Source: Escherichia coli (GTDB lineage Bacteria; Pseudomonadota; Gammaproteobacteria; Enterobacterales; Enterobacteriaceae). Taken from it: DNA of 64,000 bases. Location: the NCBI RefSeq assembly GCF_003334385.1, contig NZ_QOWN01000002.1. One strand, given 5' to 3'. The position numbers are program-made. This document shows positions 55,117 to 58,100 of this stretch, one piece after another (within the stretch, counting starts at the first letter, position 1; every line of letters starts with the position of its first letter).

Positions 55117-58100
55117 TCAACATATACGTTAAACCTTTGTCGCATAATTCTGAGGTTTAGGGATCTTCCTGGTTCCCTTATCAACGCATCGAGAACGTCT
55201 ACCCTTAAAGGACGTTGAACCTGAAGGGAGAAAAACGATGTCTCATTTAAAAGACCCGACCACGCAGTATTACACTGGTGAATATCCCAAACAGAAACAA
55301 CCGACGCCAGGCATCCAGGCGAAGATGACACCGGTACCGGATTGCGGCGAGAAAACCTATGTTGGTAGCGGTCGCCTGAAAGATCGTAAAGCACTGGTGA
55401 CAGGGGGCGATTCCGGAATAGGTCGCGCTGCCGCCATCGCTTACGCGCGTGAAGGGGCTGACGTGGCGATCAGTTATCTTCCCGTGGAAGAAGAAGACGC
55501 TCAGGATGTGAAAAAGATCATTGAAGAATGCGGACGCAAAGCCGTTCTGCTGCCAAGCGATTTAAGCGATGAGAAATTTGCCCGTTCGCTGGTTCACGAA
55601 GCGCACAAGGCGTTAGGCGGGCTGGATATTATGGCGCTGGTCGCCGGGAAACAGGTTGCCATTCCGGATATTGCAGACCTCACCAGCGAACAGTTTCAAA
55701 AGACCTTTGCCATTAACGTTTTCGCGCTGTTCTGGCTAACCCAGGAAGCGATCCCCCTGCTACCGAAAGGTACAAGTATCATCACCACTTCGTCAATCCA
55801 GGCATACCAGCCAAGTCCGCATTTACTGGACTATGCGGCTACGAAGGCGGCGATTCTGAACTACAGCCGTGGCTTGGCAAAACAGGTCGCGGAGAAAGGT
55901 ATTCGGGTGAATATTGTCGCGCCAGGCCCGATCTGGACAGCACTGCAAATTTCCGGCGGACAAACGCAGGATAAGATCCCGCAGTTTGGTCAGCAAACGC
56001 CGATGAAACGTGCGGGGCAACCGGCGGAACTGGCCCCTGTATATGTTTATCTGGCAAGTCAGGAGTCGAGCTACGTCACCGCAGAAGTGCACGGCGTGTG
56101 CGGCGGCGAGCATTTAGGTTAAAAAAATGCCCGGTTGTGAAAAGCAACCGGGCATCATTGTGAATTCACTCTTACCTGATGTGGCGAAAACGCCTTATCC
56201 GCCTACAAACGCATGAAGATTCAACATGTTGCAATAGATTTTGTAGGCCTGATAAGCGTAGCGCATCAGGCATTGAGCACCTAATGCCGGATGCGTCGTG
56301 AACGCCTTATCCGGCCTACAAACGCACGAAGATTCAACATGTTGCAATAGATTTTGTAGGCCTGATGAGCGTAGCGCATCAGGCAATTCTACTTTACTTC
56401 GCTTTGGCGGTTTCTTCGCCGACCAGACCTATCTTCAGGTAACCCGCCTGATGCAGCGTATCCATTACCTTCATCAACGTCTCGTAATCGACGGTTTTGT
56501 CCGCTCGGAAGAAGATGGTGGTGTCTTTCTTGCCTTCGGTTAACGCATTCAACGCCGTAATCATTGTTTCATCGGTGACCGGATCGTTACCGATAAACAT
56601 CGAGTTGTCTGCCTTCACCGACAGATAAACCGGTTTTTCCGGGCGCGGCTGCGGCGTGCTGGTAGAAGCAGGCAAGTTCACCTTCACATCTACCGTCGCT
56701 AACGGTGCCGCCACCATAAAGATAATCAGCAGAACCAACATCACGTCGATAAACGGCGTCACGTTGATATCATGCATTTCGCCGTTATCGTCGAGGTTTT
56801 CGTTAAGATGCATTGCCATCGGATATTATCCTGCGCGTAATTTTTGTGCGACACGAACCGGATGCGCAGCGGCGCTGGCTTCCAGATCCAGGTCACGGCT
56901 TTGCAGCAACAATACCTGCGCTGCAACATCACCCAGCATCGCTTTAAAGCCGCCAATCTGGCGTGCAAATACGTTATAGATAACGACCGCAGGAATCGCT
57001 GCCACGAGGCCGATTGCCGTTGCTAACAGAGCTTCTGCGATACCCGGCGCAACGACTGCCAGGTTAGTGGTCTGCGTTTGCGCGATACCAATAAAGCTGT
57101 TCATGATGCCCCAGACCGTACCAAACAGACCAACGAACGGAGAAATCGCGCCGATGGTTGCCAGATAGCCGTTACCGCGGCCCATTTGACGACCCACTGC
57201 GGCGACCCGACGCTCCAGACGGAAGCTGGTACGTTCTTTAATACCTTCGTTATCGTCGCTGCCTTCTGACAGTTCCAGCTCATTCTGCGCTTCATTGAGC
57301 AAATGCAGGCTTAAGCTTTTGCTACCAAAATCAGCGGCGATATCGTTGGCCTGGTTTAAGGAACGCGCTTCAGCCAGCAGTTGCTGCTCGCGCTTAAGGC
57401 GACGCTTCTGATTGAAGAACTCTACGCTCTTACTGAAGAAGATTGCCCAGGTGACTACGGAGGCCAAAATAAGCCCAATCATCACGCACTTAACGACAAT
57501 ATCGGCGTGCTGATACATACCCCAGACGGAAAGGTCCGTCTGCATTAAATTATTACCCACTGTGTATCTCCAGGACGCAAGTCACAAAATCTGCGCATAA
57601 TAATATCAAAACGACGTCGAATTGATAGTCGTTCTCATTACTATTTGCATACTGCCGTACCTTTGCTTTCTTTTCCTTGCGTTTACGCAGTAAAAAAGTC
57701 ACCAGCACGCCATTTGCGAAAATTTTCTGCTTTATGCCAATTCTTCAGGATGCGCCCGCGAATATTCATGCTAGTTTAGACATCCAGACGTATAAAAACA
57801 GGAATCCCGACATGGCGGACAAAAAGCTTGATACTCAACTGGTGAATGCAGGACGCAGCAAAAAATACACTCTCGGCGCGGTAAATAGCGTGATTCAGCG
57901 CGCTTCTTCGCTGGTCTTTGACAGTGTAGAAGCCAAAAAACACGCGACACGTAATCGCGCCAATGGAGAGTTGTTCTATGGACGGCGCGGAACGTTAACC
58001 CATTTCTCCTTACAACAAGCGATGTGTGAACTGGAAGGTGGCGCAGGCTGCGTGCTATTTCCCTGCGGGGCGGCAGCGGTTGCTAATTCCATTCTTGCTT

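What the first reader, a model, noticed from the sequence alone, without database searches (positions are those of the whole stretch)
56189..56385. Tandem duplication of an 84-bp REP-containing unit between yghA and exbD
Two nearly identical units, each ending in a REP palindrome, suggest local expansion of a BIME-like element that could affect exbBD mRNA stability or termination.
Basis: seen in the sequence. Interest (0 to 1): 0.3.

Follow-up and report, generated by a model that had tools for sequence, protein, structure and literature searches.

The report
Known REP/BIME repeat after exbD
The repeat is real but ordinary: it is the already catalogued REP222 cluster of E. coli K-12, two tandem copies of a common palindromic intergenic element in the tail of the exbB-exbD message, present in about 70% of E. 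coli genomes and cleanly absent from about 29%.

Summary
Observation confirmed. Window 56174-56384 holds two head-to-tail units with a 112/113-nt period.

Each unit is a complete BIME-1-type element. It has a y-type REP, a 36-nt L linker with an IHF-like core (ATTCAAnnnnTTG), and an inverted short Z (z1) REP.

The array lies between the exbD stop codon (9 nt away) and a hairpin with a U7 tail that looks like the exbBD terminator. It is therefore 3'-UTR RNA.

It is EcoCyc's REP222. Published work already lists exbB, exbD and yghA among REP-bearing transcripts that rise when ATP is depleted, and shows by Northern blot that yghA mRNA is stabilised.

In 5426 complete E. coli genomes:
- 3733 have at least two units.
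- 93 have one unit, a chimera consistent with unequal crossover.
- 1575 have none. They share one junction, and a synonymous SNP beside it was present in all seven sampled.
- None has three units.
- 181 carry IS621 in one REP.

E. albertii has one unit at the same site, so one unit became two within Escherichia.

Verdict: already known kind and known locus. Interest is low.

The parts
56126..56156 (-). Terminator-like hairpin. On the exbD strand it is followed by a U7 tract whose complement overlaps the yghA stop codon. It is the putative exbBD intrinsic terminator and may act in both directions for yghA.
   Evidence: The pattern scan finds 12 pairs, 7 of them G-C, and a tail TTTTTTTAAC on the - strand only. 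The fold is -20.5 kcal/mol with z -6.0 on the - strand and -22.0 on the + strand. The hairpin is conserved in every allele, including the empty one, and in E. albertii.
56174..56206 (+). Unit 1, decayed y-type REP (y'), ending in CCTAC.
   Evidence: It shows about 6 differences, including a 1-nt deletion, from the y consensus and from unit 2's y. As RNA it folds weakly: -9.6 kcal/mol, z -1.5.
56207..56242 (+). Unit 1 L linker (36 nt) with an IHF-like core ATTCAACATGTTG at 56219-56231.
   Evidence: It aligns to the canonical BIME-1 L consensus built from 44 copies. It has one mismatch to WATCAANNNNTTR, the same as 36 of 40 canonical linkers.
56243..56271 (-). Unit 1 short-Z (z1) REP, read on the + strand as GTAGGCCTGATAAGCGTAGCGCATCAGGC. 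It contains the IS621 target ATCAGGCCTAC.
   Evidence: It matches the short-Z consensus exactly (the z1/z2 labels in that script are swapped and were corrected). The RNA hairpin is -13.2 kcal/mol. IS621 is inserted here in strain PK8568 and in 181 genomes in all. The target sequence is from PMC11208160.
56272..56285 (.). Tail-to-tail spacer between the units (ATTGAGCACCTAAT).
   Evidence: It is homologous to the spacer in the divergent Escherichia locus L006, with 12 of 14 bases shared. It lies inside the Rfam naRNA4 match at 56246-56316.
56286..56319 (+). Unit 2 intact y-type REP.
   Evidence: It has one difference from the y consensus. The RNA hairpin is -17.0 kcal/mol.
56320..56355 (+). Unit 2 L linker (36 nt) with an IHF-like core at 56332-56344.
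   Evidence: It is 35/36 identical to the unit 1 linker.
56356..56384 (-). Unit 2 short-Z (z1) REP. On the exbD mRNA its stem starts 9 nt after the UAA stop codon. It holds a second IS621 target.
   Evidence: It has one difference from the consensus. The RNA hairpin is -15.3 kcal/mol, z -5.2. The distance is read from the sequence: stop codon at 56396-56394, stem from 56384.
56385..56396 (-). Right flank of the array (AATTCTACT) plus the exbD stop codon. It partly resembles the conserved flank of canonical BIME-1 (AATTTTGCGTTTGTC).
   Evidence: See the alignment to the 44-copy consensus. The empty allele lacks this flank. In all 7 empty-allele strains sampled it also carries a linked AAG>AAA change in the last exbD codon.

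Best explanation
The feature is the REP222 cluster of E. coli K-12, a two-unit array of BIME-1-type elements. Each unit is a y REP, an L linker with an IHF-type site, and an inverted z1 REP.

How it arose. A single ancestral unit, as still seen in E. albertii, gained a second 113-nt unit locally. The likely routes are unequal recombination or slippage, or REP-transposase-mediated amplification. The two-unit form then stayed essentially unchanged in the K-12/O157-type lineages.

How it changes now:
- Homologous crossover between the units removes one period, giving the rare one-unit allele.
- A single-origin 233-bp deletion haplotype lacking the whole array has spread by recombination, mostly in B2-like backgrounds.
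- IS621 uses the z1 REPs as its bridge-RNA-specified target.

How it works. The array lies between the exbD stop codon and the hairpin-plus-U7 terminator, so it is transcribed as the 3' UTR of exbB-exbD. It is also reached by read-through from convergent yghA. Its stable hairpins block 3'-to-5' exonucleases, so decay needs RNase E and the ATP-dependent degradosome. Transcript levels therefore rise when ATP is low.

Shown here: the anatomy, the family assignment, the copy-number and presence/absence distribution, orthology with E. albertii, and IS621 occupancy.
Shown in the literature: higher exbB and exbD abundance (tiling array), and Northern-measured stabilisation of yghA mRNA, under ATP depletion, with dependence on RNase E and the degradosome.
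Inferred: the duplication mechanism, that the hairpin is the exbBD terminator, IHF binding, and any fitness effect.
For: Anatomy and family:
- Repeat structure.
- Matches to the three E. coli REP consensus sequences. The sequences are confirmed in PMC11208160.
- The Z hairpin lacks 7 nt of the Z2 hairpin of naRNA4, so it is the short type.
- The canonical BIME-1 consensus from 44 independent copies aligns through y, L and z1.
- Same IHF core pattern as 36 of 40 canonical linkers.
- BIME-1 definition from PMC3333891.

Local duplication:
- L1 vs L2 97% identical, against at most 78% for any other linker.
- E. albertii has one unit with shared locus-specific flanks, and the extra 113-114 columns in K-12 correspond to one unit.

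Stability: the same unit-diagnostic differences occur in 5 strains.

Alleles in 5426 genomes:
- At least two units: 3733.
- Empty site: 1575.
- One chimeric unit: 93.
- Three units: 0.

Single origin of the empty allele:
- Identical junction in all 1575.
- Adjacent linked SNP in 7 of 7 sampled.
- Found in at least 3 flank backgrounds.

RNA role:
- Terminator-like hairpin with U7 on the exbD strand, downstream of the array.
- The 283-nt 3' UTR folds at -110.8 kcal/mol, z -6.9.
- Individual REP hairpins fold at -13 to -17 kcal/mol.
- REP222 is named, and exbB, exbD and yghA are in the top 50 transcripts upregulated by NaF. yghA shows a ~300-nt REP-containing decay intermediate and RNase E/degradosome dependence: PMC10100675.

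IS621.
Against: - No transcript 3'-end data for exbBD were available here, so the terminator assignment rests on a consensus scan.
- The published decay measurements are for yghA, whose reported ~1000-nt full-length size is about what termination at the hairpin would give.
- 29% of genomes, including successful B2 lineages such as Nissle, lack the array entirely with no change to the ExbD protein. Any function is therefore dispensable.
- In the empty allele the terminator hairpin itself sits about 7 nt after the stop codon, so a structured 3' end exists with or without the array.
- The hairpin-proximal y' REP is decayed, consistent with weak constraint.
- Divergence between the units is uneven: 2 mismatches and 1 indel in the 84-nt core, against about 6 differences in the 15-27 nt to its left. 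A simple one-step duplication does not fully explain this. Gene conversion or differential decay must be added.
- The polarity of the empty allele (loss rather than ancestral absence) rests on two outgroups only.
Confidence: 0.8

Rival explanations
1. The array is a neutral or selfish repeat with no role for the host. It persists because it is harmless in a 3' UTR, and its variants simply record mutation (duplication, crossover deletion, whole-array deletion, IS621 insertion).
For: - Absent from 1575 of 5426 genomes.
- Interrupted by IS621 in 181 genomes.
- One REP is decayed.
- The empty allele keeps a hairpin right after the stop codon.
- BIMEs are described as a major source of intergenic polymorphism (title of Bachellier 1997, seen only as a reference; and PMC3333891).
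Against: - The two-unit array is nearly invariant across divergent strains: 0-3 SNPs in 271 nt.
- Transcripts bearing REP222 respond strongly to ATP depletion.
- Being an RNA decay barrier is a physical consequence of the hairpins, whether or not it is selected.
Confidence: 0.35
2. The main activity is on DNA, not RNA. Two IHF sites flanked by cruciform-prone REPs act as a nucleoid-protein or topology element between the convergent yghA and exbBD units, as proposed for RIB/RIP (BIME-1) elements.
For: - Two IHF-like cores with the canonical BIME-1 pattern.
- The literature states that the BIME-1 linker frequently carries an IHF site and that REPs bind gyrase and Pol I.
- The position between convergent genes.
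Against: - No binding data for this locus were found.
- The linkers differ from the canonical core (CAACATGTTG in place of CAATATATTG) and are only 63% identical on average to other L linkers.
- Gyrase preference is reported for BIME-2 (y + z2), which this array is not.
Confidence: 0.25
3. The REP next to the stop codon lowers ExbD synthesis. A REP stem within 15 nt of a stop codon stalls the terminating ribosome and triggers mRNA cleavage and tmRNA tagging.
For: - The unit 2 z1 stem starts 9 nt after the exbD UAA.
- The rule of fewer than 16 nt is reported for E. coli REPs (Liang 2015, as summarised in PMC12306157).
Against: - The original paper could not be read, and exbD was not found in the supplements that are held.
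- The empty allele places the even more stable terminator hairpin about 7 nt after the stop, so the array may add nothing.
Confidence: 0.2
4. The two units arrived by two independent BIME-1 insertions side by side rather than by local duplication.
For: - BIME-1 elements are described as single-copy per locus.
- The left REP halves differ more than the rest of the units.
Against: - The linkers are 97% identical, against at most 78% to any of 40 other copies.
- The Z REPs and linkers share the same rare variants.
- The extra segment relative to E. albertii is exactly one period.
Confidence: 0.04
5. The central z1-spacer-y pair encodes a naRNA4-like nucleoid-associated RNA that works with HU.
For: Rfam RF02564 matches 56246-56316 (-) at 61.0 bits, above the gathering score of 59.5. 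Any RNA with two hairpins was reported to be active with HU in vitro (PMC4550694).
Against: - The match reflects shared REP sequence.
- The second hairpin lacks 7 nt of the Z2 hairpin.
- The opposite strand also scores 44.9 bits.
- There is no evidence of a discrete RNA from this locus.
Confidence: 0.07

Closest known systems
BIME-1 (also called RIB or RIP elements) of E. coli
   Same: Each unit has one y REP and one short-Z (z1) REP, head to head, around a ~35-nt L linker. The linker has the ATTCAAnnnnTTG IHF-type core. The element sits at the 3' end of a transcription unit.
   Different: BIME-1 is described as single-copy per locus, but here there are two in tandem, joined by a 14-nt tail-to-tail spacer. 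The linker is a divergent variant, 63% identical on average to canonical L. One y REP is decayed, and the conserved outer flanks of canonical BIME-1 are only partly recognisable.
Atypical BIMEs and BIME-2 arrays
   Same: REP pairs repeated in tandem. Copies at one locus are well conserved, and copy number varies between strains (PMC3333891).
   Different: BIME-2 uses z2 and a short S linker and is a preferred gyrase site. This array uses z1 and L. Only 0, 1 or 2 units were found in 5426 genomes, never 3.
REP-stabilised 3' ends of mRNAs, with decay dependent on the degradosome (RhlB, PNPase)
   Same: Stable REP hairpins downstream of the coding region. Transcripts bearing this same cluster (REP222) rise when ATP is depleted, and yghA mRNA is stabilised by NaF and by RNase E or degradosome defects.
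   Different: Half-lives were measured for yghA only, not for exbBD. Here a separate intrinsic-terminator-like hairpin lies beyond the REPs.
REPIN/RAYT (TnpA-REP) system
   Same: REPs with the GTAG head, arranged in inverted pairs. TnpA-REP-driven amplification is a published model for tandem BIME copy-number change.
   Different: There is no RAYT gene in or near this locus. The one-unit allele is explained by plain homologous crossover. The empty allele carries a linked SNP, which argues against recurrent precise excision.
naRNA4 (Rfam RF02564, from REP325)
   Same: A two-hairpin y-spacer-Z module. The score is just above the family's gathering threshold.
   Different: The Z hairpin is the short type. 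No RNA species or HU link is known for this locus.

Membership tests
REP (palindromic unit) family of E. coli | A 29-36-nt imperfect palindrome with a GTAG/CTAC head, matching one of the y, z1 or z2 consensus sequences. | tested here: met
   Three of the four REPs match the consensus with 0-1 differences, and the fourth (y') with about 6. The consensus sequences are confirmed in PMC11208160. The hairpins fold at -13 to -17 kcal/mol.
BIME-1 | One y and one z1 REP in inverted, head-to-head orientation. | tested here: met
   The Z type is shown to be short by the 7-nt gap against the Z2 hairpin of naRNA4. All canonical y-L-Z copies recovered also carry the short Z.
BIME-1 | A long conserved L linker (~35 nt) that carries an IHF consensus. 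| tested here: met
   The linker is 36 nt and aligns to the consensus of 44 copies. Its IHF core has 1 mismatch, as in 36 of 40 canonical linkers. Overall identity to the others is only 63% on average.
BIME-1 | Occurs as a single copy at a locus. | tested here: not met
   The window and 3733 of 5426 genomes have two tandem units. One unit is found in 93 genomes and in E. albertii. By the published scheme the K-12 array would therefore be filed as an atypical BIME built from BIME-1 parts.
BIME-1 | IHF actually binds the linker. | not testable with these tools
   Only the sequence motif could be checked.
BIME-2 | z2 (long Z) REP with y, a short S linker, in tandem copies. | tested here: not met
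   The Z is the short type and the linker is 36 nt and L-like. Only the tandem arrangement is shared.
Intrinsic terminator (for the hairpin at 56126-56156) | A G+C-rich stem-loop followed directly by a U tract on the transcribed strand. | tested here: met
   12-pair stem and U7 on the - strand, -20.5 kcal/mol. Actual termination was not tested.
naRNA4 (RF02564) | Score at or above Rfam's gathering threshold, and a discrete HU-associated RNA. | tested here: inconclusive
   61.0 bits against a threshold of 59.5, but with a truncated second hairpin and a 44.9-bit match on the other strand. RNA existence and HU binding are not testable here.
IS621 target site | The 11-nt target ATCAGGCCTAC with a CT core. 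| tested here: met
   The target is present in both z1 REPs (GTAGGCCTGAT at 56243-56253 and 56356-56366). The unit 1 site is occupied in L004, with CT on both sides of the insert, and in 181 genomes. The target is from PMC11208160.

The most novel reading that the evidence does not exclude
The three allele classes (two units, one unit, clean absence) may not be neutral. They could set different ExbB/ExbD levels, and so different TonB-dependent iron uptake and phage or colicin sensitivity. In that case the near-invariant two-unit array in A/B1/E-type lineages, and the single-origin empty haplotype that has recombined into several backgrounds (mostly B2-like), would be maintained by selection. 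A normally single-copy BIME-1 would then have been doubled as a tuning device for one operon.
Probability: 0.08. Interest if true: 0.4.

Novelty: already known. Interest (0 to 1): 0.12.

Why it matters
It matters little beyond bookkeeping. The element is a catalogued REP cluster (REP222), and strain-to-strain BIME variation has been known since the 1990s.

What this check adds is a clean, quantified picture of one locus:
- Allele frequencies in 5426 genomes.
- Evidence for one-to-two unit expansion within Escherichia.
- A one-unit allele that looks like a crossover product.
- A single-origin empty haplotype.
- A frequently occupied IS621 target that has also seeded an ~11-kb inversion in one strain.

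The natural alleles would serve as ready-made isogenic-style controls for anyone testing how REP arrays affect exbBD or yghA mRNA decay.

Tried and rejected
- Tandem Repeats Finder found nothing. The array has under two full periods, so the repeat finder and pairwise alignment were used instead.
- I first labelled the short Z REP as z2 from memory (script). The Rfam naRNA4 alignment (Y + Z2) and PMC2817692 showed that the long form is Z2, so the REPs here are z1 and the units are BIME-1-type. I corrected this.
- The RefSeq records of MG1655 and W3110 in this collection carry no repeat annotation for the locus. The name REP222 therefore comes from a paper, not from a record.
- The original BIME, RIB and REP-translation papers are not held. 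Supplement searches for exbD and yghA were empty.
- A synthetic three-unit query found no genome.
- The heterogeneous array of the divergent Escherichia locus L006 is absent from the 5426 genomes.
- Coverage statistics could not separate one-unit from two-unit genomes, because BLAST re-uses the single unit for both query copies. I counted instead with junction-specific short queries and with an E-value threshold that only a full-length single alignment can pass.
- I considered recurrent precise excision of the array by a REP transposase and rejected it as the main route to the empty allele. All 7 sampled empty alleles share an adjacent SNP that is absent from every filled allele.
- About 25 of the 5426 genomes fit none of the counted classes and were not examined.
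Full report
**Where we are**

The window is E. coli K-12-like. The 571 bases around the finding are 100% identical to strain EMG2 and other K-12 derivatives.

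- yghA runs on the + strand, 55238-56122.
- exbD (56394-56819) and exbB (56826-57560) run on the - strand.
- The finding lies in the 271-nt gap between the two convergent stop codons.

Yes.
- The repeat finder reports two ungapped 72-nt copies (56201-56272 and 56314-56385) at 97% identity, 113 nt apart. A weaker extension to the left is 81% identical.
The complete units (56174-56272 and 56286-56385) align with 91 in 100.
- Tandem Repeats Finder is silent, probably because there are fewer than two full periods.

The true period is 112/113 nt.

**Anatomy**

Read on the + strand, the gap contains these features in order:
- A strong hairpin at 56126-56156.
- A decayed y-type REP (y', 56174-56206).
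- A 36-nt linker (56207-56242).
- An inverted short-Z REP (56243-56271).
- A 14-nt spacer (56272-56285).
- An intact y REP (56286-56319).
- A second 36-nt linker (56320-56355).
- A second inverted short-Z REP (56356-56384).
- Nine bases, then the exbD stop codon.

The three E. coli REP consensus sequences I used are printed in PMC11208160.

I first called the short Z "z2" from memory, and that was wrong. The Rfam model of naRNA4 was built on a Y + Z2 unit (PMC4550694). It aligns to 56246-56316 with a 7-nt gap in the top of its second hairpin. PMC2817692 also calls the long form Z2. The REPs here are therefore z1.

**Family**

PMC3333891 summarises the accepted scheme.
- BIME-1 is z1 + y around a long, conserved L linker that often holds an IHF site, and it occurs as a single copy.
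- BIME-2 is z2 + y with a short S linker, in tandem copies.
- Atypical BIMEs mix these parts and are multi-copy.

To test the linker I scanned metagenome contigs for y...Z head-to-head pairs.
- This recovered 57 distinct linkers, almost all with the short Z.
- Forty-four distinct full copies gave a consensus of y - AAAAnnnTGCAAATTCAATATATTGCAG... - z1, with conserved outer flanks.
- Both units of the window align to it through y, L and z1.
- Their cores (ATTCAACATGTTG) have one mismatch to WATCAANNNNTTR, the same as 36 of 40 canonical linkers.

Each unit is thus a BIME-1-type element. The tandem pair breaks the single-copy rule, so under the published scheme the K-12 array is an atypical BIME built from BIME-1 parts.

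**Duplication or two insertions?**

The two linkers are 35/36 identical. The closest of 40 other linkers is 78% identical, and the mean is 63%. The units are each other's nearest relatives.

At the orthologous site E. albertii has one unit (Z - 36-nt linker - decayed y). It shares locus-specific flanks on both sides. The extra 113-114 columns in K-12 correspond to exactly one unit.

A divergent Escherichia genome (L006; exbD 96% and yghA 93% identical to K-12) also has two units with the same tail-to-tail spacer. There, one linker carries a 15-nt deletion, and the other unit has a long Z with a different linker.

More distant relatives that keep yghA next to exbD (Enterobacter sp., "Escherichia" sp. 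ESNIH1) have only a terminator hairpin in the gap.

So a BIME entered this gap in Escherichia and went from one unit to two. The two-unit form is old. K-12, O157:H7 and three other strains keep the same three unit-diagnostic differences, and their 271-nt gaps differ by only 0-3 SNPs.

Divergence between the units is uneven, being higher in the left REP half. This needs gene conversion or differential decay in addition to a single duplication event. That step is inference.

**Copy number in E. coli**

I counted in 5426 complete genomes, using queries that only one allele can satisfy.

| Allele | Genomes |
|---|---|
| Unit 1/unit 2 junction present (at least two units) | 3733 |
| Empty-site junction | 1575 |
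| Exactly one unit | 93 |
| Three units | 0 |
| Unclassified | about 25 |

The one-unit allele is a chimera. Its 5' part matches unit 1 (GCATG) and its 3' part matches unit 2 (GATGAG). This is what unequal crossover inside the 49-nt identical stretch would leave.

The empty allele removes 233 bp net, including non-REP flanks. This puts the exbD stop codon 7 nt from the hairpin.
- All 1575 copies align full-length to the same 56-nt junction.
- All seven sampled copies carry a synonymous AAG>AAA change in the last exbD codon. No filled allele, L006 or E. albertii has this change.
- The seven sit in at least three flank backgrounds, one of them almost K-12-like.

The simplest reading is one deletion haplotype moved about by recombination. 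Recurrent precise excision would not carry the SNP each time.

**What it does**

On the exbD strand the hairpin at 56156-56126 is followed by U7. It is the only terminator-like site in the region and folds at -20.5 kcal/mol. It lies downstream of the array, so the array is exbBD 3' UTR.

- The 283-nt stretch folds at -110.8 kcal/mol, z -6.9.
- The three intact REPs fold at -13 to -17 kcal/mol.
- The decayed y' folds at -9.6 kcal/mol, z -1.5.

The locus has been studied. Murashko et al. 2023 (PMC10100675) name it REP222, with five REPs according to EcoCyc.
- They list exbB, exbD and yghA among the 50 transcripts most increased by fluoride-induced ATP depletion.
- By Northern blot, yghA mRNA and a ~300-nt REP-containing intermediate are stabilised by NaF, by RNase E inactivation and by loss of the degradosome scaffold.

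The caveat is that half-lives were measured for yghA, not for exbBD.

Two further roles are possible but untested here:
- IHF binding at the two linkers.
- Translational damping of ExbD. The first REP stem starts 9 nt after the stop codon, inside the reported 15-nt limit. In the empty allele, however, the terminator hairpin sits just as close.

The Rfam naRNA4 match (61.0 bits against a 59.5-bit threshold) reflects shared REP sequence. I do not take it as evidence for a separate RNA gene.

**Other dynamics**

Both z1 REPs contain ATCAGGCCTAC, the natural target of the bridge-RNA recombinase IS621.
- In strain PK8568, IS621 sits in the unit 1 REP with CT on both sides of the insert.
- The same junction is present in 181 genomes.
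- In strain 120899 a second, inverted IS621 has produced an ~11-kb inversion from hybG to yghA, which separates yghA from exbD.

**Verdict**

- The feature is a known element (REP222) of a known kind that behaves as BIMEs are known to behave.
- The new content is descriptive: allele frequencies, the likely history of the locus, and IS621 occupancy.
- Interest is low.

Noticed in passing
L004 1700-3010 (strain PK8568); window targets 56243-56253 and 56356-56366: IS621, the bridge-RNA IS110-family element, is inserted in the unit 1 z1 REP at its known target ATCAGGC-CT-AC. The same junction occurs in 181 of 5426 complete E. coli genomes.
   Followed up: yes
L220 (strain 120899, NZ_CP025916.1 3074000-3092000): Two inverted IS621 copies flank an ~11-kb inverted segment (hybG...gpr-yqhA-yghA). 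One copy is in the exbD-side BIME and the other is next to yghU. As a result yghA no longer faces exbD.
   Followed up: partly
window 45197-45279: This is the only other REP pair in the 64-kb window: a y REP and a long-Z (z2) REP, tail to tail with a 13-nt spacer, which is BIME-2-type (the labels in that script are swapped).
   Followed up: no
window 56826-57560 (exbB); L001-L004 and L208-L220: In all PGAP-annotated RefSeq records seen, the ExbB protein WP_000527844.1 is named 'tol-pal system-associated acyl-CoA thioesterase'. MG1655 calls the gene product 'Ton complex subunit ExbB'. This looks like a propagated misnaming.
   Followed up: no
window 56246-56316: Rfam naRNA4 (RF02564) matches the central z1-spacer-y module at 61.0 bits, just above the gathering score of 59.5. 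The other strand scores 44.9 bits. The family model evidently picks up ordinary REP pairs.
   Followed up: partly
L007 1924-2100 (E. albertii NBRC 107761): yghA is missing. Only about 25 nt of its 3' end remain beside the conserved hairpin, and a different gene follows.
   Followed up: no
L008, L014 (Citrobacter) and L015, L016 (Pseudocitrobacter), positions ~1924-2060: Other genera carry their own, unrelated palindromic repeats directly after the exbD stop codon. Citrobacter has a REP-like GCCGGGT...ACCCGGC, and Pseudocitrobacter has GGGAGAGGG-type palindromes. The same spot seems to have been colonised independently.
   Followed up: no
L088-L167 (metagenome BIME-1 copies): Canonical BIME-1 copies share conserved sequence outside the two REPs: about 20 nt on the y side and AATTTTGCGTTTGTC on the z1 side. 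The mobile or conserved unit is therefore longer than REP-L-REP.
   Followed up: partly
window 56179-56301 (+), 56195-56386 (-), 56298-56543 (+): Open reading frames of 40, 63 and 81 codons run through the REP array. They are by-products of the repeat and are not annotated in any record seen.
   Followed up: no
PMC10100675 compared with window 56123-56393: The paper, citing EcoCyc, counts five REPs (a to e) in REP222. Only four canonical REPs are present here, so the fifth may be the terminator hairpin.
   Followed up: no
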